Shown piece by piece: positions 3,426 to 61,994 of a DNA stretch of 64,000 bases (positions are counted from its first letter, which is position 1; every line of letters starts with the position of its first letter). A program made the position numbers and the translations under genes. The notes below the pieces were generated by a model. That model worked only from the letters and a program-made list of their open reading frames with translations. It did no database searches and had not been told where the DNA came from. Location of the stretch: assembly GCA_964016885.1 (NCBI GenBank), contig OZ024760.1:14198001-14262000 (forward strand), written 5' to 3'. The DNA is from Eledone cirrhosa. Its lineage: Eukaryota.

Positions 3426-3486
3426 TATTCTATTATATATATTTCAAGGGTACCAACATTTTGGTACACTATCATCAGATAAAATA
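3426..3486 (-). ncRNA. Type I minimal hammerhead ribozyme (family H1)
   Basis: Reverse complement: tattttat CTGATGA tagtgtaccaa-aatg-ttggtaccctt GAAA tatata TA atagaata. 8-bp stem I, gtaccaa/ttggtac stem II, palindromic helix III. Confidence 0.8.
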
Positions 3487-20842: not shown

Positions 20843-21509
20843 GAAGTGGAAAATATTTATTTTATTGACCCCGTAAGGTTGAAAGGCAAAGCTAACCTCA
20901 GCAGGATTAGAACTCAGAATGTAAAGAGACACAACAACAACTGGTTAGCATTTGTCCAATGTTCTCACAACTCTCATAGTTTCTTACATTGAAATGAAGT
21001 TCAGTATATAGATTGGGGGGGGGGGGGGGCAGAAAGTGTGGGTGATTGTGACAAAAACTGTTTGATCAAAACCACTCTGGTGACCAACCAGCCAATTAAC
21101 CTACCAATCTACCAACCAATGAACCAATCCAACATCCCACCCAGCCAACCATCAATCAATCAACCATAGACATATCTCCCCCACCCCAGCTCCATATCTG
21201 TTTGCAAAGTTGTGGATTCACTGGTTGGAGCCAGCCTAACCCATCCTGGATGCACACCAATAGGAATACATATGTATACATATATATATATGTATATATA
21301 TATGTATATATATATACATATATATATGTATATATATATATATGTATATATATATATGTAAGAATTAAAATACTAGAGTGTGTTGGAGTTAAACACCCTC
21401 TTCATATTATAGAAATGACAGTAAAGATATAGCTCAATGTAATTAAACAGAGCCGAAGAATTATGAAAATAAACCAAAGAAGCCTTCAATACATCAAAAG
21501 TCTTTATTA

Positions 21510-21547
21510 GCCAACAATGTTTTGTCCTATTAAGGACTCATCAGGGC
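21510..21547 (-). ncRNA. Hammerhead ribozyme with G12A core mutation (probably inactive)
   Basis: Reverse complement: gcc CTGATGA gtcc-ttaata-ggac AAAAC att GTT ggc, followed by aataaa. GAAAC->AAAAC is consistent with CpG decay. Confidence 0.65.
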
Positions 21548-22554
21548 AAGTAAAGCTATAAGAAGCACTATCGGCCAATACAAGCCAAAAACTGAGTTTT
21601 TTGTGTCGAAAAAATCTGAAAAATTAATAAGCAGGATGACAGACGATCCGAGACTAGTTTGTTAAGGTGTTCACCTCATGATTGTAAGGTCATGAGAACG
21701 ATTATCACTGGTGCATTTCATGTTGCTCCAGTTCACTCAGCTGGAAAATAGTGAATTGCAACTGTAATCCAAAAAGGCTAGCCATGTGCCACGTTGAATC
21801 TCCCTGAGAACAATGGTAACCTCTACACTATTATGGGGTGAGAGAGTGAGAGAAAGAGAATGTGTAAGTGAGAGAGAGAAAGAGAATGAGTATCTGAGAG
21901 AAAAAGAGAGTGCAAGATAGACAATTAGATAGAGTGAGAGAGAACAGAAAAAAGAAAAAGACAAAGTCACAGTGACATAAAGAGAGAGAGAGAGAACAGA
22001 GAGGGAGAGTGTGAGAGTAAGAGAGAGTGTGAATGAGAAAGATATAGAGAGAAAGTGAGAGATATAGGGAGAAGGTGAGAGAGAGTGAGAGAGTGAGTGA
22101 GAGAGTGAGTGAGAGAGAGAGAGTGAGTGAGAGAGAGAAAGTGAGAAAAAAAGTGAAAGAGAGAGAGTAAGCAATCAGTGGTTGTGTTATATTGCACCAA
22201 TTCACCTGCTCTTTATATGAAGAAAAAAATAAATAAATAAAATTGAAAAAATTCCTCTGAAGACAGAAAAAAGTAGGTCAGATTATTACATACTGATACC
22301 TCCCCCTCACCTTACCTTTTCCCTCCTCCCTTTCCCTTTACTAAATTACCTTTACACTGACAGTCTTACTCACACAATTATATATATGTATATATATATA
22401 TATAATATATATATACACGTTTATATATATATATAATTGTTTCTACATTTGGCACAAGGCCAGCAATTAACCAGTGCATTACTGGTACTTTATTTTATCG
22501 ACCCCATAAGGATGAAAAGCAAAGTCAATACATATAATGCATATATATATATAA

Positions 22555-23424: not shown

Positions 23425-23648
23425 AAGTTTTTTCTGATGATTTGGTTAAGCATACATTGTATTTAAAATTGAGTGACACAACTTCAAGTGATTCGGAATT
23501 TCAAGACAACTTAACCAATGAAACAATTGTTAATACTGTAAATAAAACCCTTTTTGTACTGTTGGCCATGTTATTCTTCACTCTTTCACTATATATATAT
23601 ATAGTGACGAAACATTAGTCAATTGCATGAACTCATAATCCTTTATTT

Positions 23649-23704
23649 ACTGCTATATATATTTCGATGATAGCCATTGAATGGCTATGACCTCATCAGG
23701 CAGT
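23649..23704 (-). ncRNA. Type I minimal hammerhead ribozyme
   Basis: Reverse complement: actgc CTGATGA ggtc-atagccatt-c-aatggctat-catc GAAA tatata TA gcagt aaataaa. Perfect stem I and a long stem II. The insert lies between (TA)n tracts. Confidence 0.85.
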
Positions 23705-30589: not shown

Positions 30590-30996
30590 TATTTACGTAT
30601 CGAGAAAGAGAAAAAAAGGGGGGATAGGTGATACATATAGTTATTTGCCAAGTAGCGTATGCCAAAGGTGCTCGATACTAGTGCCGGCAGTATTAAATAT
30701 TCGAAGTGTTAATATTTAGTGGGCTAGAGAGTTAGCAGAGCGTAAGCACGTGGGGAAGTAAAAAATCGGAGAATAGACCGTTAAAACATGTTTATTTAAA
30801 ATATCACCTACGTACGTTTCGCCCAGTTGGGCTTCTCAAGGGCATAAATAATCACAAGTGTTCCTTATATTGCTCGGAAAGAGTTTTTGGGGTTAAATCC
30901 ACATCAAGGTTCATTGCTCGCAAAAATATCTTGTTTTGATTTTGCAGCAGGTCAAGAGAGGTAACTCTGGCCGGTGTTAGGGCAGTTTTTCCCGGA

Positions 30997-31027
<31 letters not shown>

Positions 31028-31642
31028 GCCGCATCCGTTTGTCTGAGGCTGGGTCTGGTATGCAAGGATTGCTTCCTGGGTGTTATTTTGCAGCGCCTGC
31101 CCGCCGGGGTGTTAAGACTTGTTGCAGGGAGATCCAGTGTACTATTTCACTCTTCATCCTTAACCCATCTGAAGAAGGATATTTTTAAGCGATGTGTACA
31201 ACTTATCGCTTAAAAATATCCTTCTTCAGATCGGTTAAGGATGAAGAGTGAAATAGTACACTGGATTTCCCTGCAACAAGTCTTAACACCCCGGCGGGCA
31301 GGCGCTGCAAAATAACACCCAGGAAGCAATCCTTGCATACCAGACCCAGCCTCAGACAAACGGATGCGGCAAAAAAAAAAAAAAAAAAAAAAAATTTGTC
31401 CGGGAAAAACTGCCCTAACACCGGCCAGAGTTACCTCTCTTGACCTGTGGCAAAATCAAAACAAGATATTTTTGCGACCAATGAACCTTGATGTGGATTT
31501 AACCCCCAAAACTCTTTCCGAGCAATATAAGGAACACTTGTGATTATTTATGCCCTTGAGAAGCCCAACTGGGCGAAACGTACGTAGGTGATATTTTAAA
31601 TAAACATGTTTTAACGGTCTATTCTCCGATTTTTTACTTTCC
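30590..31642. mobile_element. Penelope-like/retrozyme-type insertion forming a ~880-bp near-perfect palindrome
   Basis: Arms about 30756-31193 and 31205-31639 with an 11-nt loop (gtgtacaactt), about 5 substitutions and a poly-T/A length difference. HHR in each arm, unpaired extension 30590-30755, flanked by TA/CA microsatellites. Confidence 0.75.
31549..31593 (+). ncRNA. Minimal hammerhead with U3/A8 core variant (UUGAGAA); mirror copy on the minus strand at about 30802-30846
   Basis: tatgccc TTGAGAA gccc-aact-gggc GAAAC gtac GTA ggtgata. The C3U+G8A changes keep the 3-8 pair. Helix III is palindromic (ACGTACGT). Stem I is weak. Confidence 0.7.
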
Positions 31643-31643
31643 T

Positions 31644-31706
<63 letters not shown>

Positions 31707-41280: not shown

Positions 41281-41325
41281 AGTCATAGTCCTTTCGTCAC
41301 ACACTCTGTGACCTCTTCAGTGACT
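41281..41325 (-). ncRNA. Type I minimal hammerhead ribozyme
   Basis: Reverse complement: agtca CTGAAGA g-gtcac-agagtgt-gtgac GAAA ggac TA tgact. Perfect stems I and II, 1-bp helix III with a tetraloop. Confidence 0.8.
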
Positions 41326-42870: not shown

Positions 42871-43285
42871 GAAATGAAATGAAATGAAATGAAATGAAAT
42901 GATATATATAAATATATATATATGTGTATATATGTATATATATATATAAGTACACATATTTTATCCAGATCAATCTCTTAAGATCTCACCTGTATATCCT
43001 TCAAATCTCTCTCTCATTCTCTCTTTCTCATTTTCTCCCTTTGTATTTATATATATATAATATATATATATATATATTAATATATATATATATATGTATA
43101 CGTACATACATATATGTATACAGACGTACAGTAGTATGTATATATATACATACATGCATGTATCGGTTTACCGAACATTTATTATAATGCTCGGTTTGTT
43201 TGTTTGTAAACAAACAAACAGCCCGAATTACGCCATACAGTGTTTAGGCAACCACGTCACCTTTTTGTTCAACACTGACACAGGA

Positions 43286-43328
43286 ACGATGTACTAGTTT
43301 CAAGCTTATTAGCTATCGTCAGCATCGT
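43286..43328 (-). ncRNA. Type I minimal hammerhead ribozyme with palindromic CUAG loop
   Basis: Reverse complement: acgatg CTGACGA tagct-aata-agctt GAAA ctag TA catcgt. Canonical PLE-type minimal HHR. Confidence 0.88.
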
Positions 43329-43694
43329 ATACCTTTCTGCCAGATGGTTGAACGTCTGAAAGTATATACTTTCCTTATGCATATTAACGGCTGAGCAGCC
43401 TAATTTGCATATCGAGTGAATTCAGTCGGCCGGGCACACCGAAAACGATAAATGGAATAGAATGAAACAAAATTTCATTTCTCACTTTTAGTACGGCATG
43501 TATATATATATATACATACTACTGTACGTCTGTATACATATATGTATGTACGTATACATACATACTTACATTTAAGTAAGTGCCGTACTAAGAGTGAGAA
43601 ATGAAATTTCGTTTCATTCTATTATATATATATATATATATACCATGACTGAATTATAACCATCAACATAGTCAAGGTATGTCAGGCATCAACT

Positions 43695-43760
43695 TATTTT
43701 ATCTGATGAGGACGTACTGTTGAAATAGTTCAGTACCTCTGAAATATGTATAATAAAATA
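43695..43760 (+). ncRNA. Type I minimal hammerhead ribozyme (family H1)
   Basis: tattttat CTGATGA ggac-gtactg...cagtac-ctct GAAA tatgta TA ataaaata. Same stem I as 3426-3486 but a different stem II. Confidence 0.82.
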
Positions 43761-43800
43761 TATTTGATCACATGAATGTCTATATTTATTAATATTTTGA

Positions 43801-43872
<72 letters not shown>

Positions 43873-43881
<9 letters not shown>

Positions 43882-44186
43882 ATGAAGTTGGAAATAGCAT
43901 GGGAGATATGTTTAAGGGTCTGTTTTTCTTTTTTGATTCGTCAAAGTGAGAATAAAGAAGAGATTGTGTTATTAAAAAAAGAGGGACAATTCTTTTTTGA
44001 AAATTCTTTTTATATACTTCATAAAAAAATTTTCAAAAAAGAATTGTCCCTCTTTTTTTAATAACAATCTTTTCTTTAATGTCACTTTGACGAATCAAAA
44101 AAGAAAAACAGACCCTTAAACATATCTCCCGTGCTATTTCCAACTTCATCTTTTCTCTATACCCACTGTTTTGTATAGAACCTCAC

Positions 44187-44187
<1 letters not shown>
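43873..44187. repeat. ~140-bp-arm inverted repeat between (GA)n and (TA)n
   Basis: 43873-44010 is the reverse complement of about 44022-44158, with a short one-sided tail. No clear HHR core. Confidence 0.75.
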
Positions 44188-44218
<31 letters not shown>

Positions 44219-44366
44219 ATAAATCAAGAAAGAAGAGTGACACGGTTTGCTATACAATAAGGGCTTTATTCACATTGCTGACAATTGTTTCTCTGAACTG
44301 GTAGGTCTAGAGATCGCTACCCGCCTGTTTTTGCGTCAATCGATCACCAATACTTCTTTCTTGATT

Positions 44367-44436
<70 letters not shown>

Positions 44437-46007
44437 GTATGTTGTTGTTAAAGCTCAAATCTATATATGTGTAGCTGCACACTTAGGATGTATCTGATAG
44501 GAGATTTCTTGTGTGTTTTAATGATAGGAACCCCAGTCCTATCACACTTACACACACACATATATCTATGTATGTTGATGCAGCTTACATCTATATATAT
44601 TTAGTTGCATATGAAGTTGTATATGGTAGGAGGTTTCTTGTGTGTTTTAATGATAGGGACCCCAGTCGTATCGCATATATACACACATATATGTATTTTG
44701 CTGTTGCATCTCACATCTATATATGTTTAGCTGGCCTCCTATGCTGTTTATGACAGGAGGTTTCTCGTGTTATTTACTGATAGACACCCCAGTCCTATCA
44801 CACACTCACACACAAACACACACACACACTCAAACACTCACACAAACACTCACACACACAAACACTCACACAAACACACTCACACACACACAAACACACA
44901 AACACACTCACACACACACACTCACACACACACACACTCACAAACACATACACAAACACACACACAAACACATATTTAAGTTGTTACATCTCACGTCTAT
45001 ATACGTTTAGCCGGCCTCCAATGATGCTGTATCTGACAGCAGACTTATGATGTTCTTTACTGATAGAGACCCCAGGCCTACCAGACACACGCCTGCTCAC
45101 ATACCCGTTGTTACAGCTCATATCTATGTAGGTTTAGTCATGCGCCTCAGATGTTGGATATCACAAGAAGCAGCCGTCTTATCATGGAAAGCACTGTGAT
45201 GAAATGAAGCATCTTGTTCAAGAACAGAATATGCTTCCTATCGACATATCTCCTCTCCTATCTCTTTCTCTATATCTATCGGTAGCTCTCTCTCTCTCTC
45301 CCACTCTCTCTCTATCTCTCCCCTCTCTCTATCTCCCAATCTATGTGTTGAATCTATCTAAAACTATCTCTCTCTATTACCATCACTTGGTTTATATGTT
45401 TATATATATATACATATATGTATATATATATGTGTATGTATATATATATATGTGTATGTATATATATATGTATGTGTATGTGTATATATATATATATGTA
45501 TATATGTATCTGTATATATATATATATGTATGTATCTGTACATATATATATATATATGTATGTGTATGTATGTATGTGTATATGTATGTATGTATGTGTA
45601 TATGTATGTGTATATATATGTATGTATGTGTGTGTGTATATATATATATATGTATATATATATACACACATGGCTTAGTGGTTAGAGCATTGGCCTTGCA
45701 ATCAAAAGGTTGTGAGTTCAATTCTCAGACCGGGTGATGTGTTGTTTCCTTGAGCAAGATACTTTATTTCACATTGCTCCAGTTTACTCAGCTGTAGAAA
45801 TGAGATGATAGGGACTGGGTTCCCTATCATTCCACTGCAAAAACCACCCAGCACTCACTGTAAATGAGGTTGGCCTTAGGAAGGGCATCCAGCTGTAGAA
45901 ATCAAGCCACAATCAGTTCCCGTCCCACCCTTGCAAGCAGGGAAAAGTGGACGTAAAATGATGATGATGATGATATGTATGTATGTATATATGTATGTAT
46001 GTGTGTA

Positions 46008-46046
<39 letters not shown>

Positions 46047-46132
46047 TATGAAAAGAAAATCTTTTTCGCAGAAATTGTTGGATTTCTCCAAATTTAAAGG
46101 TTTATTAGGAACTTTCAATGTTTATTTTAGGT

Positions 46133-46198
46133 TTTGCCGTCTGAAGAGCTCAGGCTATCTTAACTGATAGTCCTCAGTGAAATATGTATAATGGTAGA
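46133..46198 (+). ncRNA. Type I minimal hammerhead ribozyme
   Basis: tttgccgt CTGAAGA gctca-ggctatc-ttaact-gatagtc-ctcagt GAAA tatgta TA atggtaga. Stem I pairs fully with G-U wobbles. Confidence 0.78.
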
Positions 46199-47068
46199 CT
46201 TAATTCACAGGCCAGTTTAACACCACCCCTTTGCCCTTGGGTGGTAGACTTAATCCACAGCCCAGTTTAACACCACCACCTGGCCCTTGGGGGGCTATAG
46301 CTGAGTCTTTATGGAAAGCATTCAAGCCAGGTTTCCAGTTTGAGGATACCATCCTCACATCCTTCTTTCCTCCCAACCAGTCTTGGAAGCCCCGGAAAGT
46401 GTCAAGGGCACTGCTCTTCCCTTTCTGACTAAACAGTGAAATATAAAGTATTTACCCTCACCTAGTTTATATTCTGGATTTATGTAACAGTACTCTTTAT
46501 TGAAAGTTGGAGCAAAGATGGACATTTGCCAAGACATATAGAGGCAGACACCACACACAGCACCAGCCAACATCACACCACCATCACACCACCATCACAC
46601 ATACCCATGATACATACACTACTACCGCCATCATATCACACACATACACCATCATCTCATACCCACCAGCCGACATCACACCATTACCACACCAACAAAC
46701 CACACCACACCACCACTTCAACAGGGGCTCCCAAAGATAGAAAAAGTATGAGCAGATGTTTATGTATCATCAAAGACCTTCATAAAGCAGGGCAGTTTGT
46801 ATATACCTAGTCTTGGTGCTTCACTAGAAGAGGTTGATGCTGAGAAATATCCTCCCACCCACCCCCACCATCAAATATATGAGATAGGCCAAGCCAGTCT
46901 AAATGTAAAATTCAAAGTATTTGTAGACTGTGACAATATGGAGGATATTTAACTTATCCATTGCCATGTTTCTAATACAAGACACTACCTATGATTTTCA
47001 ACTAATTTTTAACCCTTAAATGCTAAAGAGTTAAGTGGATTTAATAATACAACAAACATTTTCATTAA

Positions 47069-47257
47069 CCCTTTAACATTTACATTACTCTATATATACT
47101 ATTGTATTTTTGTGGTAAAGGCTTTATTTTACATAATTATCTCACATAATATCGAATCTATGAGATTTTGATATTATTCATTTTGAGTGGCCTGTTACGG
47201 CTAGTTTGAACAGAAAGAGGTGAGAGAATTCTGGCCGGATATGGCCAATTTAAAGGG
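47069..47257 (-). mobile_element. piggyBac-like MITE
   Basis: ttaa|ccctttaacattta…taaaggg|ttaa. Confidence 0.75.
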
Positions 47258-47334
47258 TTAAGTCAGTGCTTGGAACATAACAACCCTTTTCTTAACATAT
47301 TTCTAATAAATGACACTGTCTATGAGAGGGTCAT

Positions 47335-47710
47335 GGAGGCAGAGTCCTCAAACACTCTTTCCAGAGGGTCCTGACAGAAGCAACCGTCTCCAACTGATCT
47401 GGCTGGTTCCCCAAGCATGACCAGCTAAGCTCATGGATTTTATCCAACTATCTTGCTCAAGGTCTACCTCGGGGTCTCCTGCCGGTTAGTTTCACCCGTA
47501 AAATCTGTCTAGCGATTCTTTCCTGAGACATTCTAACCACATGTCCGTAATATCGGAGTTGTGATCTCTCAATTCAGAGAAGTAGTGGCTCTACCTGGAG
47601 TAACTCTCTGATCTCCGAGCTACAAATTTGTCCAGCGATTCTTTCCTGAGACATTCTAACCATATGCCCATAGTATTAGAGCTTGGTCTCTCAATTTGGA
47701 GAAGTAGCAA
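47335..47710 (-). mobile_element. RTE-clade LINE fragment with a partial internal duplication; homolog at 20335-20440 (plus)
   Basis: Reverse complement encodes IERSQLRYYGHVVRMSQERIARQILRVKLTGRRPRGRP. Confidence 0.8.
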
Positions 47711-48279
47711 CTAGTGTAACATAACTAACTTTCTAATTATTAATCTGGTGCTTGGGACATAACAAAGATCCTTACATAAAATTAAAGAATTGGTACCAGG
47801 GAGGGTATCCAGCTGTCATTGCCCCCAAAAGGTGTCCTTTTACAGAGTGTACTGGGTGCATTCCATCAAGACACCAGCACTAGAGAGCTTGTCATGCCCT
47901 CAAATAGACTAAAGACTCCCCTCTAACCTAAATTGTCTTCAATTGTTAACAACTTTACAGAATGGTTGGTAATGATGATGATGATGATGACAAAGATGAT
48001 GATAAAGCTAATGATAATGATGATGACGATGGTGGTGATGGTGATGGTGATGGTGATGATGATGATATGGATGATGATGATAATGATGATGATAATGATG
48101 ATGATGATGATGATTAAATGGATGATGATGATGATGATGATGCTGATTGTAATAATAATGATGACAACTACGATAATGATTATGATGATACTGGTGATGA
48201 TGTCACATCCACCATGTTGAGTTAGTGTTGATTAATAACTTGGTTTGTCAGTGGTCGAGAGATACTCTTAGTCATAGTG

Positions 48280-48550
48280 AGTGGAGTAGAGATAGGTATG
48301 AGTGTAAGGTGGAGTAGAGATAGGTATGAGTGTAAGGTGGAGTAGAGATAGGTATGAGTGTAAGGTGGAGTAGAGATAGGTATGGGTGTAAGGTGGAGTA
48401 GAGATAGGTATGGGTGTAAGGTGGAGTGGAGATGGTACGGGTGTAAGGTGGAGTGGAGATATATTTGAGTGTGGAGTGGAGTGGAATGGAGATATATTTG
48501 AGTGTAAGGTGGAGTGGATATATTTAAGTGTAAGGTGGAGTGGAGATAGA
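48280..48550. repeat. 28-bp minisatellite
   Basis: gagtgtaaggtggagtagagataggtat. Confidence 0.9.
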
Positions 48551-48861
48551 TATAAATTATCCAAGTATAACAATCTAGAGATAGAAATAACTAGAATGTG
48601 GATGATGAACACAGAAAGAATCCCTATTATGTTAGCTCCTTGGGGATTCATAAAAATACACAGGCAGAGATACCTAACTAAAACCCCTCGGGACTTACAA
48701 ATATATATATAACATAGGGGGCACTGTACACATGTTACAAAGAGTACTTTTAACACAATAGAAACTCCCAAAACAACACTGCATGTAGCCAAGGTGCACA
48801 GAGCTGTGCTCGGTAGTCCAGAGATGACGTGCAATGGAAATAAGACTATTAGTAATAATAA

Positions 48862-49217
48862 TAATTGTTTCTACTTTTGGCACAAGGCCAGCAATTACCC
48901 AGTACATTACTGGTGGTTTATTTTATTGACCCCGTAAGGATGAAAGGCAAAGTTAACCTCGGTGGGATTTGAACTCAGATCGTAAAGGGACGTAACTACG
49001 CTGGAAAGCATGAGGCACAAGGCCAGTAATTTTGGTGGGAGGGGAAGTCGATTAAATTCGACCCCAGTGGATTACTGGTGGTTTATTTTATTGACCCCGC
49101 AAGGATGAAAGGCAAAGTTAACCTCGGTGGGATTTGAACTCAGATCATAAAAGGCCGTAACTCTGTGCTGCAAAGCATGGCATCTGACGCTCTACAGATA
49201 CTGCCAATCCACTACCT
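48862..49217 (-). mobile_element. SINE family A tandem pair
   Basis: Reverse-complement consensus match. Confidence 0.85.
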
Positions 49218-49545
49218 TAATAATAATAATAATAATAAACGCAAGTTCTTGCTGCAGCTGCTGCTGCTGATGATGATGATGTATGTAAGCCAACCAAGTG
49301 TGGTAAAAAAACACTCCTGTATTGGAAATAAAGTAGGAGAGAGGAAAATGGAGTAATAGGTATTAATCTGGTTTACCTAATGTTATTACGGCTATATTTA
49401 GAAGCTGAGTGATTCAGGTGGAAACCTGTGTGTGTGTAGTGTGTGTGTGTAGTGTGTATGTAGTATGTGTGTGTGTAGAGTGTCTAATATGGCTGTGGAT
49501 CTCTCTATTTCTTTATATATATATATATACACACACATGAATATT

Positions 49546-49577
<32 letters not shown>

Positions 49578-49604
49578 ACACATATATGCATGAATATGTG
49601 TTTG

Positions 49605-49636
<32 letters not shown>

Positions 49637-49658
49637 CATATATATACATACATACACA

Positions 49659-49704
<46 letters not shown>

Positions 49705-50059
49705 CATACATACATACACACACATATATACACATACATACAGAGCACACATATGTATGTATGTGTGTGTGTGTGTGTGTATATATATAAACACACACAC
49801 ATATATATATATATACACATACATACAGAGCACACATACACACAAACATGTATATGTGTGTGTATATATATATACACACACACACATATATACACACATA
49901 CATACAGAACACATACTTGTTTTAAATATAAAGCTTAAGCAAAGCATCTATGTTTTTATACATGTATGTAGTGTGTATATAGTGTGTATATGTAGTGTGT
50001 ATATGTAGTGTGAGTGTAGAGTGTATGTATGTATATATATGTATGTGTCCCTCTTAAAG

Positions 50060-50888
50060 CACCAGTGGCACATCTCCACTGGCACCCCAATGACTGGCCG
50101 CACCACTGACACATCTAGAGTGGCACCCCAACGACAAGCTGCACCAGTGGCACCCCAACGACTGGCTGTACCTGGCACATCTAGAGTGGCGCCCCACAAG
50201 CTGCACCAGTGGCACATCTAGAGTGGCACCCCACAAGCTGCACCAGTGGCACCCCAATGACAAGCTGCACCTGTGGCACATCTAGAGTGGCACCCCACAA
50301 GCTGCACCAGTGGCACATCTAGAGTGGCACCCCACAAGCTGCACCAGTGGCACCCCAATGACAAGCTGCACCTGTGGCACATCTAGAGTGGCACCCCACA
50401 AGCTGCACCAGTGGCACCCCAACGACTGGCTGTACCTGTGGAACATCTAGAGTGGCACCCCACAAGCTGCACCAGTGGCACCCCAACGACTGGCTGCACC
50501 TGTGGCACATCTAGAGTGGCACCCCACAAGCTGCACCAGTGGCACCCCAACGACTGGCTGTACCTGTGGCACATCTAGAGCGGCACCCCACAAGCTGCAC
50601 CAGTGGCACCCCAACGACAAGTTGCACCTGTGGCACATCTAGAGTGGCACCCCACAAGCTGCACCAGTGGCACCCCAACGACTGGCTGTACCTGTGGCAC
50701 ATCTAGAGTGGCACCCCACAAGCTGCACCAGTGGCACCCCAACGACAAGTTGCACCTGTGGCACATCTAGAGTGGCACCCCCACAAGCTGCACCAGTGGC
50801 ACCCCAACGACAAGTTGCACCTGTGGCACATCTAGAGTGGCACCCCACAAGCTGCACCAGTGGCACCCCAACGACAAGTTGCACCAGT
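50060..50888. repeat. GC-rich 64-bp minisatellite with internal sub-repeats
   Basis: gtggcacatctagagtggcaccccacaagctgcaccagtggcaccccaacgactggctgtacct, about 12-13 units. Confidence 0.95.
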
Positions 50889-50967
50889 TGCGAGAACACA
50901 ATTGATAGGAATATCTTCACTAGTAGAGAAATGGTTGCAAAAATTTGCAGTAAACTAAAAGCAAAGA

Positions 50968-51630
50968 CTTAGCATTTAAACCAGCCATATCCAGCCAGAA
51001 TTCTCTCACTTTTTTCTGTTCAAACCGGTTGTAACTGGCCACTCATACTGATGTTAAGGTATTGTTCTCAAAATAAATAATATCAAAATCTCATAGATTC
51101 AATATTATGTGAGATAATTATGTGAGGTAAAGCCTTTACCATGAAAATACAATAGTATATATATATAGTAATGTAAATGCTATGTGAGGTAATTATGTGA
51201 GGTAAAGCCTTTACCATGAAAATACAATAGTATATATATATAGTAATGTAAATGCTATGTGAGGTAATTATGTGAGGTAAAGCCTTTACCATGAAAATAC
51301 AATAGTATATATATATATATAGTAATGTAAATGCTATGTGAGATAATTATGCGAGGTAAAGCCTTTACCATGAAAATACAATAGTAAATATAGAGTAAAG
51401 TAAATGTTATGTGAGTTATTATGTGAGGTAAAGCCTTTACCATGAAAATATAATAGTAAATATAGAGTAAAGTAAATGTTATGTGAGATATTATGTGAGG
51501 TAAAGCCTTTACCATGAAAATATAATAGTAAATATAGAGTAAAGTAAATGTTATGTGAGATATTATGTGAGGTAAAGCCTTTACCATGAAAATATAATAG
51601 TAAATATAGAGTAATGTAAATACTAAAGGG
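50968..51630 (+). mobile_element. piggyBac-like MITE with an internal ~70-75-bp tandem expansion (about 7 units)
   Basis: Unit ttatgtgaggtaaagcctttaccatgaaaatacaatagt…gtaaatgctatgtgag, ending in ctaaaggg|ttaa. Confidence 0.8.
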
Positions 51631-51775
51631 TTAATGTAATGCAGTCGTAGTGCAGTTTTGTACTTTACAAGAATGATTTGCTAATGTGGTTTTATGTGGT
51701 GCACAATTTTAAGAGTTAATGCCTGCCAGGTAAAATAGAGAATAGCTGTATAAATAAGGTGGTGACGCTGGTAGG

Positions 51776-51829
<54 letters not shown>

Positions 51830-51897
51830 ACCACCAGCCCCATATATATATATATATATATAATATAAGATCAAAAGATGGTTAAAAGAGTTCCATG

Positions 51898-51965
51898 TAT
51901 TTTATTATGCGCATTTCAAAAACAAATATCATCATGGGATATTTGCGTTCTCATCAGATAAAATA
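51898..51965 (-). ncRNA. Hammerhead ribozyme (family H1), left arm of an inverted repeat
   Basis: Reverse complement: tattttat CTGATGA gaacgcaaatatc...gatatttgttttt GAAA tgcgca TA ataaaata. Confidence 0.82.
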
Positions 51966-52455
51966 GGGAGACATGATATGAAGCTTAAAAAACACTTGCG
52001 AGCAGTGAAGTGTTAAATCAACATATGAAAAATAAAATATGATGGATATGTGAGATTGGGGAAAAAAAAAAGGAGGAAGGGGGAAGGAAAAAGTAAGGAA
52101 GAGGAAGAAAGAAAATAAAGGATGACGGGGGAGGAGTATAAGAAGGAAGGATGAGAGAGGAGGAGAAATGAGTGAGAGAGAGAGATAGCCTTTAATACTG
52201 AGAAACACTATCTCACAGAGAGAAATAAAAAAACCGTTGTAAGATAATACATAATTTTAAAAAATTTTGAAATTAAAAGTTAATGAGCTTTATGAATGGT
52301 GATGTTTATGATTAAAGAAAAAGGAATTAAGAATAGTATTTATTTAAGGTTTATATATTGAAGGGTTTAATAATATGTGCGAAAAGGAATTTATTAATAT
52401 GTATTATTAAAATAAAAATATTAAGGAGATAAGGTGAATGAAGAAGAAATTAAAT

Positions 52456-52526
52456 TATTTTATCTGATGAGAACGCAAATATCATCCCATGATGATATTT
52501 GTTTTTGAAATGCGCATAATAAAATA
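52456..52526 (+). ncRNA. Hammerhead ribozyme (family H1), right arm of an inverted repeat
   Basis: tattttat CTGATGA gaac-gcaaatatcatc-ccat-gatgatatttgt-tttt GAAA tgcgca TA ataaaata. Palindromic TGCGCA helix III. Confidence 0.85.
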
Positions 52527-52945
52527 CATGGAACTCTTTTAACCATCTTTTGATCTTATATTATCTATACTCCAGTCCTATAAACTGTTGAGTGCTACTT
52601 ATCCGATATTTGCATTGCTTTATTGTGCTTCAATAAAACTCACCTCCATTATATATATATATAAAGTCAGGTCAGATCAAAGGAACAGACATTGTCATAC
52701 TAGAGGCTATATGGTTGTGCTACTGTGTATGTGTGTGTGACTGTAACTTCTAGTGTGAACGCTAGTGTATGTGTGTTAGTATGCGAGTGTGTGTGTGTGT
52801 CAGTGTTAGTATGAGTGTGTGTGTGTGTGTGTGTCACTAAGTTATTAACACCATCTGTTGAACAATCTGTCTCAGATGAGAGAATCTATACCACCGTGTG
52901 TTATCTCTTGGATCTTTTTGAGTGTGTGTACACACACACACACAC

Positions 52946-61791: not shown

Positions 61792-61856
61792 TATTTTATT
61801 ATACGTATTTCGAATACAAAATCATCAAAGATATTATGTTCTCTTCATATAAAATA
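61792..61856 (-). ncRNA. Decayed hammerhead (family H1, C3A)
   Basis: Reverse complement: tattttat ATGAAGA gaacat...gtattc GAAA tacgta TA ataaaata. Confidence 0.6.
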
Positions 61857-61932: not shown

Positions 61933-61994
61933 TATTTCATCTGACGAGAACATATCTTTGATGATTTTATATTCAAAATACGTATAATAAAATA
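61933..61994 (+). ncRNA. Decayed hammerhead (family H1, G12A)
   Basis: tatttcat CTGACGA gaacatatc...tatattc AAAA tacgta TA ataaaata. Palindromic TACGTA helix III. Confidence 0.62.

What the first reader, a model, noticed from the sequence alone, without database searches (positions are those of the whole stretch)
43286..52526. Helix III sequences differ but are repeatedly palindromic, suggesting dimer-dependent cleavage
The helix III inserts read CTAG (43286), GTAC (31580), TATATA (3426, 23649), TGCGCA (51898/52456), TACGTA (61792/61933) and AATT (44280 half-motif). TATGTA (43695, 46133) is one change from TACGTA. Different sequences that all stay self-complementary point to selection. Established: minimal HHRs with an unstable helix III can cleave as double hammerheads by pairing palindromic loops. 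Inference: solo genomic copies are largely silent, and tandem transcripts of the parent element switch cleavage on.
Basis: partly seen in the sequence, partly recalled or inferred. Interest (0 to 1): 0.75.

Follow-up and report, generated by a model that had tools for sequence, protein, structure and literature searches.

The report
Penelope hammerheads with self-pairing loops
These motifs are hammerhead-type RNA folds at the ends of Penelope-like jumping genes, and most families carry a self-pairing loop that likely lets two copies join and cut, a mechanism already described in other animals, although one large family here lacks such a loop.

Summary
The motifs are real type I minimal hammerheads in the pLTRs of Penelope-like elements (PLEs) and in a 456-502 bp retrozyme-like unit. 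Palindromic loop III with dimer cleavage is published (Cervera and De la Pena 2014), and this scan noted PLE hammerheads before on other DNA.

Genome-wide tally for the main Hydra-type family: at least 35,560 of 51,812 inserts are strict palindromes, 47,037 with TATGTA. TATGTA is not a near-miss. It outnumbers TACATA 11,477 to 107, so it is a master sequence that self-pairs through G-U. Decay of TGCGCA is symmetric (591 vs 547), so dispersed copies look unselected.

Integrated copies span the cut site (82 of 89), so their templates were uncut or re-ligated. Cleavage itself was not tested. Known mechanism, new instance, low interest.

The parts
3426..3486 (-). Type I hammerhead, Hydra-type PLE superfamily, insert TATATA
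23427..23536 (+).
23649..23704 (-). Type I hammerhead, stem I ACTGC/GCAGT family, insert TATATA
30802..30846 (-). Inverted twin of the 31549 variant hammerhead
31549..31593 (+). Probable variant hammerhead, core TTGAGAA (U3-A8 type), insert CGTACG, weak stem I; 1,310 copies
41281..41325 (-).
43060..43618 (-). Single, rearranged copy of the 456-502 bp tandem unit (retrozyme-like)
   Evidence: 80-83% to the unit in L270
43286..43328 (-). Type I hammerhead, insert CTAG; 18,003 copies
43695..43760 (+). Type I hammerhead, Hydra-type subfamily, insert TATGTA (G-U palindrome)
44276..44301 (-). 3' half of a long-stem-II hammerhead (insert CAATTG), 5' half lost at a TA repeat
46133..46198 (+). Type I hammerhead, separate stem I family, insert TATGTA
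51855..52663 (.). 5'-truncated Hydra-type PLE insertion with two outward-facing pLTR arms
51898..51965 (-). Type I hammerhead, insert TGCGCA, left arm
52456..52526 (+). Type I hammerhead, insert TGCGCA, right arm; predicted cut after 52518
61792..61856 (-). Hammerhead with C3 changed to A, insert TACGTA, left arm of an inverted pair
61933..61994 (+). Hammerhead with G12 changed to A, insert TACGTA, right arm

Best explanation
The motifs are type I minimal hammerhead folds carried in the pLTRs of several Penelope-like element families and a retrozyme-like tandem unit, and their self-complementary helix III inserts were likely selected in the replicating master copies because two hammerheads would pair through them and cut as a double hammerhead. 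Shown: the motifs, their PLE parents, tandem copies, the palindrome excess, the G-U master and symmetric decay of dispersed copies. Computed: a monomer cannot close helix III, a dimer can. Inferred: a read-through transcript of a tandem copy is cut at two hammerheads, the monomer is ligated to a circle, and the PLE enzyme copies across the sealed site. Inferred: solo and inverted genomic copies are mostly inactive. The rule is strong but not universal.
For: Genome counts: 51,812 matches to the insert-blind Hydra-type pattern vs 416 control; TGYRCA 25,938 less TGTRCA 591 and TGYACA 547 leaves at least 24,800 palindromes; TAYRTA 22,344 less TATGTA 11,477 and TACATA 107 leaves 10,760; together 69%, 91% with TATGTA. 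CTAG in 96 of the first 100 of 18,003; CGTACG in 92 of the first 100 of 1,310. Both inner pairs, which a monomer cannot close, are complementary in 13 of 15 family entries that I listed by hand, against 0.148 expected each. Closing helix III in the monomer costs +0.9 to +5.9 kcal/mol in 14 of 16 motifs; the 2 where it is favourable are 7-nt inserts that are not strict palindromes. Self-duplex UAUGUA -2.2, UACAUA +2.6 kcal/mol. Parents: 821-aa RT plus GIY-YIG frame in L124; same-strand hammerheads flanking the frame 3,857 bp apart in L134 and 3,676 bp in L318; arrays of 456-502 bp. Published precedent: PMC4209133.
Against: A family of 9,022 copies has GGAC (53) or GAAC (47) in the first 100, no palindrome, an unstable monomer helix (+5.5) and a weak or unfavourable self-duplex (-1.7, +2.4), yet it forms tandems (L317, 4,083 bp). 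Only 25 of 57 and 23 of 38 sampled hits are strict palindromes. Copy counts reflect a few masters; the families share ancestry, so the binomial figure overstates the case; two single-locus even inserts (CACGTA, CACTTG) and three odd ones were left out of the 15. 82 of 89 Hydra-A hits span the cut site and none ends at it, which fits uncut RNA as well as a re-ligated circle. Partners in full-length tandems are 3.7-4.1 kb apart. Published dimers cleaved weakly, 8 of 9 Xenopus retrozyme dimers did not cleave, and Naiad PLEs spread without canonical hammerheads. A-to-I editing of a TATATA master could also give the TATGTA bias (not tested).
Confidence: 0.7

Rival explanations
1. The palindrome pairs two element RNAs (a kissing or template-pairing signal), and cleavage is rare or beside the point.
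For: Copies come from RNA continuous across the cut site. Low in vitro activity of PLE hammerheads, with other functions not excluded by the authors. Naiads lack canonical hammerheads.
Against: The catalytic core is kept in every family, with a U3-A8 covariation in the 31580 family that matches a published variant. The palindrome is in exact register with A15.1-U16.1.
Confidence: 0.13
2. Monomers cleave with help from proteins or tertiary contacts; the palindromes were inherited from a few founders and only the outer pairs matter.
For: The GGAC/GAAC family keeps one outer pair and no palindromic centre. The 7-nt families close helix III alone.
Against: Inner pairs change together between families (TGCGCA, TACGTA, TATATA, ATCGAT, CATATG, CAATTG, CGTACG), and a monomer cannot form them.
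Confidence: 0.11
3. The pattern is mutational: TA-repeat bias, CpG decay and A-to-I editing produce palindrome-like words with no selection.
For: TATATA is low in complexity; the genome is full of TA repeats. One subfamily holds both TATATA (6) and TATGTA (9).
Against: CpG decay is symmetric (591 vs 547) and cannot give 11,477 vs 107. GC-rich palindromes (TGCGCA, CGTACG, CTAG) dominate three families. Reversed controls give no hits.
Confidence: 0.06

Closest known systems
[quoted passage not shown]
   Same: Type I topology, extra base before stem II, long stem II, palindromic loop 3, mostly solo copies, opposite-strand pairs 100-700 bp apart, tandem pairs about 3 kb apart around an RT frame, U3-A8 variant, proposed dimer cleavage and circle.
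   Different: Here 4-6 nt inserts dominate, not loopless forms; a G-U palindrome is a major master; one large family is non-palindromic. I did not see their figures or supplements, which may show such cases.
Lunse, Weinberg and Breaker, PLE hammerhead variants cleave as dimers (RNA Biol 14:1499; title in reference lists and a review passage only; text not held)
   Same: Dimer cleavage, palindromic stem III loop, tandem arrangement.
   Different: Cannot compare in detail; not read.
Hydra clade PLEs (Craig et al. 2021, PMC8557442; section 11 and passages read)
   Same: C-terminal GIY-YIG, DKT, CxCX5C linker, no CCHH, CxxC and CxH motifs, TA-repeat insertion, canonical hammerhead.
   Different: RW followed by T or I, not K; unit 3.7-3.9 kb, not under 3 kb; over 50,000 motif copies. 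No tree was built.
Animal non-LTR retrozymes (PMC7229834, passages; bioRxiv 10.64898/2026.07.22.740005, passages)
   Same: Short tandem units with one type I hammerhead; axolotl HHR_Amex1 has one pair plus a palindromic tetraloop and cleaves better as a dimer, like the CTAG family.
   Different: Unit is 456-502 bp, above the 150-450 bp quoted; circular RNA not shown here.

Membership tests
Type I hammerhead ribozyme | CUGANGA, GAAA and UH with stems I and II in type I order | tested here: met
   7 of 11 cited sites complete, 2 with one core change, 1 variant core, 1 half
Type I hammerhead ribozyme | Match to an Rfam hammerhead model | tested here: not met
   0 matches at gathering score; none among the 150 of 510 rows listed at E up to 10
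Type I hammerhead ribozyme | Site-specific self-cleavage | not testable with these tools
   No kinetics; no run on record as RNA with raw reads
PLE minimal hammerhead (dimer type) | Helix III of 1-2 pairs with a palindromic loop | tested here: met
   Met in most families; not met in the GGAC/GAAC family
PLE minimal hammerhead (dimer type) | Lies in the pLTR, in sense to an RT plus GIY-YIG frame | tested here: met
   L124, L134, L318, L116, L317; not established for the 23649, 31580, 44280 and 46133 families
PLE minimal hammerhead (dimer type) | Dimers cleave, monomers do not | not testable with these tools
   Energy model only
Hydra clade PLE (TATTTTAT superfamily) | DKT, CxCX5C, no CCHH, CxxC and CxH, C-terminal endonuclease | tested here: met
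   Read in the 821-aa frame of L124 against the description; Pfam gave no useful match
Hydra clade PLE (TATTTTAT superfamily) | RWK motif and length under 3 kb | tested here: inconclusive
   RWT or RWI; unit 3.7-3.9 kb
Hydra clade PLE (TATTTTAT superfamily) | Placement in an RT tree | not tested
   No reference set in hand
Neptune or Nematis PLE (GGAC/GAAC family) | CX2-5CxxC linker, CCHH, C-terminal GIY-YIG | tested here: met
   Motifs read in L311 and L317; PF01541 at 22.9 bits, cut-off 22.6; the two clades were not told apart
Non-LTR retrozyme (CTAG family) | Short tandem unit with one type I hammerhead and no PLE protein match | tested here: met
   Units of 502, 484, 494, 456 bp in L270; PLE matches lie outside the array
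Non-LTR retrozyme (CTAG family) | Expressed as circular RNA | not testable with these tools
   Only contigs of runs of unknown kind

The most novel reading that the evidence does not exclude
Helix III works as a family-specific pairing code that is read at the RNA level: at least nine different self-pairing words coexist in one genome, masters tolerate tandem G-U and even tandem purine-purine mismatches (GGAC, GAAC), and any two transcripts of one family, from some 80,000 dispersed copies, could pair in trans and cut each other, host RNAs that carry them included.
Probability: 0.15. Interest if true: 0.55.

Novelty: new member of a known kind. Interest (0 to 1): 0.22.

Why it matters
The mechanism is known, so the finding changes little. 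Its use is as a natural test set. One genome supplies strict palindromes, a G-U palindrome with a 107-fold bias over its mirror word, a neutral decay control, and a successful family without a palindrome. These define a small panel for the open question whether PLE hammerheads must cut for the element to move.

Tried and rejected
Rfam found no hammerhead. The repeat finder was swamped by microsatellites. No PLE protein match lies in the window itself. Pfam did not recognise the Hydra-type protein; homologues were unnamed, 12 of 21 with PF26215. Lunse et al. was not held. Five literature searches showed no study of hammerhead loop III in a cephalopod and no tally of G-U or non-palindromic loops in the passages read; figures and supplements were not seen. 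I first took 31580 for a broken copy and 44280 for chance; both were rejected by family data. TATGTA as CpG decay of TACGTA was rejected. No RNA holder was listed. In contigs of run X4, kind not on record, summed depth steps at the predicted cut in both families laid (6,490 to 3,764 at 52518/52519; 5,366 to 1,975 at 43292/43291), with no such step in X1. Contigs cannot show ends and this is one run, so it is not counted as evidence. A descriptor for the U3-A8 core gave 2 real and 2 control hits and was of no use.
Full report
Setting. The window lies on contig C21 of a 3.0-Gb animal genome, G000. Earlier AI notes call it a cephalopod; I did not test that. It is rich in TA and CA repeats.

Observation. 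I read each cited site. Seven of 11 are complete type I hammerheads: stem I strand, CUGANGA, stem II, GAAA, insert, UH, stem I strand. The pair at 61792/61933 has one core change in each arm. The site at 31580 reads TTGAGAA in place of CUGANGA, with insert CGTACG; 88 of the first 100 of 1,310 genomic matches have this core and 92 have this insert, so it is the family form, and it fits the U3-A8 variant published for Schistosoma PLEs. Its stem I is weak, so the assignment is probable only. The site at 44280 has lost its 5' half at a TA repeat; relatives show a core some 80 nt upstream with a long stem II, and another member sits at 23434. The 11 sites are 9 insertions of 6 stem I families.

Chance. 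I sampled 120 stretches of 10 kb at fixed steps and scanned with descriptors that leave the insert free. The strict one gave 38 hits, 23 strict palindromes and 26 with G-U; the relaxed one gave 57, 25 and 39; reversed sequence gave 0 both times. The two sets overlap. Expected palindrome rates are 0.02 (6-mer) and 0.07 (4-mer), or 0.06 and 0.15 with G-U.

Genome-wide tally. GAAA-N6-TAATAAAATA occurs 51,812 times against 416 for the control; the 5' half was not checked for each match. By subtraction at least 24,800 are TGCGCA or TGTACA and 10,760 are TATATA or TACGTA: 69%. TATGTA adds 11,477, giving 91%. Strand-symmetric CpG decay of TACGTA would give as many TACATA, but there are 107. The control behaves as expected: TGTRCA 591, TGYACA 547. 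Two things follow. TATGTA is a master sequence, found with several different stems II and in tandem full-length copies (L134); as RNA it self-pairs through two G-U pairs (-2.2 kcal/mol against +2.6 for UACAUA). And once inserted, copies lose the palindrome equally in the pairing and the non-pairing direction, so they do not look selected. A-to-I editing of a TATATA master is an untested alternative source of the bias. The CTAG family has 18,003 matches, 96 of the first 100 CTAG. The 41281 family has 9,022, the first 100 all GGAC (53) or GAAC (47). That is a clear exception.

Parents. Upstream of the TGCGCA motif lie RT and GIY-YIG frames in the same sense. L124 holds an 821-aa frame with DKT, CxCX5C, no CCHH, CxxC and CxH, the marks of Hydra-clade PLEs (PMC8557442, section 11), though with RWT for RWK. 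TATGTA and TATATA subfamilies are 44-61% identical to the TGCGCA subfamily in protein and show same-strand hammerheads 3,857 and 3,676 bp apart around the frame (L134, L318). The GGAC family belongs to a PLE with CX4CxxC and CCHH motifs and a Pfam GIY-YIG match, tandem at 4,083 bp in L317. The CTAG motif sits in arrays of 456-502 bp units, like retrozymes. Among the first 100 Hydra-type matches, 31 have a same-strand match within 6 kb (subfamily not checked), 41 only a divergent inverted one, 3 a convergent one and 25 none; 28 of 100 CTAG matches have a same-strand neighbour within 1 kb.

Mechanism. In the energy model, closing helix III in one molecule is unfavourable in 14 of 16 motifs (+0.9 to +5.9 kcal/mol) and favourable only for two 7-nt inserts that are not strict palindromes. 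Against two open monomers the double hammerhead gains about 16 kcal/mol for TGCGCA, 6-7 for TATATA and CTAG, 4.6 for TATGTA and 1.9 for GGAC, and loses 2.2 for GAAC (my arithmetic; standard state, no tertiary terms). The inner two pairs of an insert can form only between molecules; both are complementary in 13 of 15 hand-listed family entries. These entries share ancestry, and I left out two single-locus even inserts and three odd ones. The window's own pairs face outward on opposite strands, so one transcript holds a hammerhead and its antisense, and the predicted fold pairs them shut. Copies do not end at the cut site: 82 of 89 Hydra-A hits span it, with 3' ends piled at +50 and +130-139 (many of these loci were picked by the motif). 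In the even sample 15 of 15, 22 of 24, 2 of 3 and 9 of 10 downstream anchors keep the upstream half; a fifth anchor was too short to be specific (4 of 14). So templates were continuous across the site: a re-ligated circle, as Cervera and De la Pena propose, or uncut RNA. My data do not separate these.

Comparison. PMC4209133 (parts 1-2 of 4 read) states that helix III is short with a palindromic loop, that monomers did not cleave and dimers cleaved weakly, and that most motifs are solo or in opposite-strand pairs. Reviews repeat this and cite Lunse et al. (PMC6765202 and PMC6466107, passages); that paper was not held, and may already treat non-palindromic loops. Axolotl retrozymes cleave better as dimers (PMC7229834, passages); 8 of 9 Xenopus dimers did not cleave (bioRxiv 2026.07.22.740005, passages). 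Naiads lack canonical hammerheads yet spread.

Verdict. New here are the counts, the G-U master with its control, and the non-palindromic family. Interest 0.22; new member of a known kind.

Noticed in passing
window 41281-41325 (-); L317: A 9,022-copy Neptune/Nematis-type PLE family whose hammerhead loop III is GGAC or GAAC; the two words go with different protein variants, so both look like masters.
   Followed up: partly
window 30750-31645: A near-perfect 900-bp palindromic insertion of a young family (1,310 copies) with a U3-A8 type core; its coding parent was not found.
   Followed up: partly
window 23434 (+), 44280 (-); L127, L071, L181: Hammerhead families with stem II regions of about 80 nt; descriptors with short stem II miss them.
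   Followed up: partly
window 21490-21550 (-): Core CTGATGA with a GTCC/GGAC stem II and AAAA in place of GAAA; a possible decayed canonical-type hammerhead.
   Followed up: no
window 52519-52540 in run X4: A-to-G differences at four places and T-to-C at one reach 5-12% of depth in X4 and under 0.1% in X1; would fit editing of double-stranded PLE RNA if X4 is RNA, which is not on record.
   Followed up: no
window 52518/52519 and 43291/43292 in run X4: Contig depth steps at both predicted cut sites in X4 and not in X1; raw reads are needed.
   Followed up: partly
L267, L268, L279: Three of 30 CTAG loci adjoin a truncated Hydra-type frame with no CTAG motif at its 3' end in the stretches fetched; may be template switching between unit and PLE.
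   Followed up: partly
L116 2780-3200: The element's 3' end (+139 from the cut) joins directly to its 5' leader, a clean head-to-tail junction.
   Followed up: partly
L162, L165, L171, L201, L212: Families with odd inserts CCACTGG, CCTCTGG and CACTG; the 7-nt ones are predicted to close helix III as monomers.
   Followed up: partly
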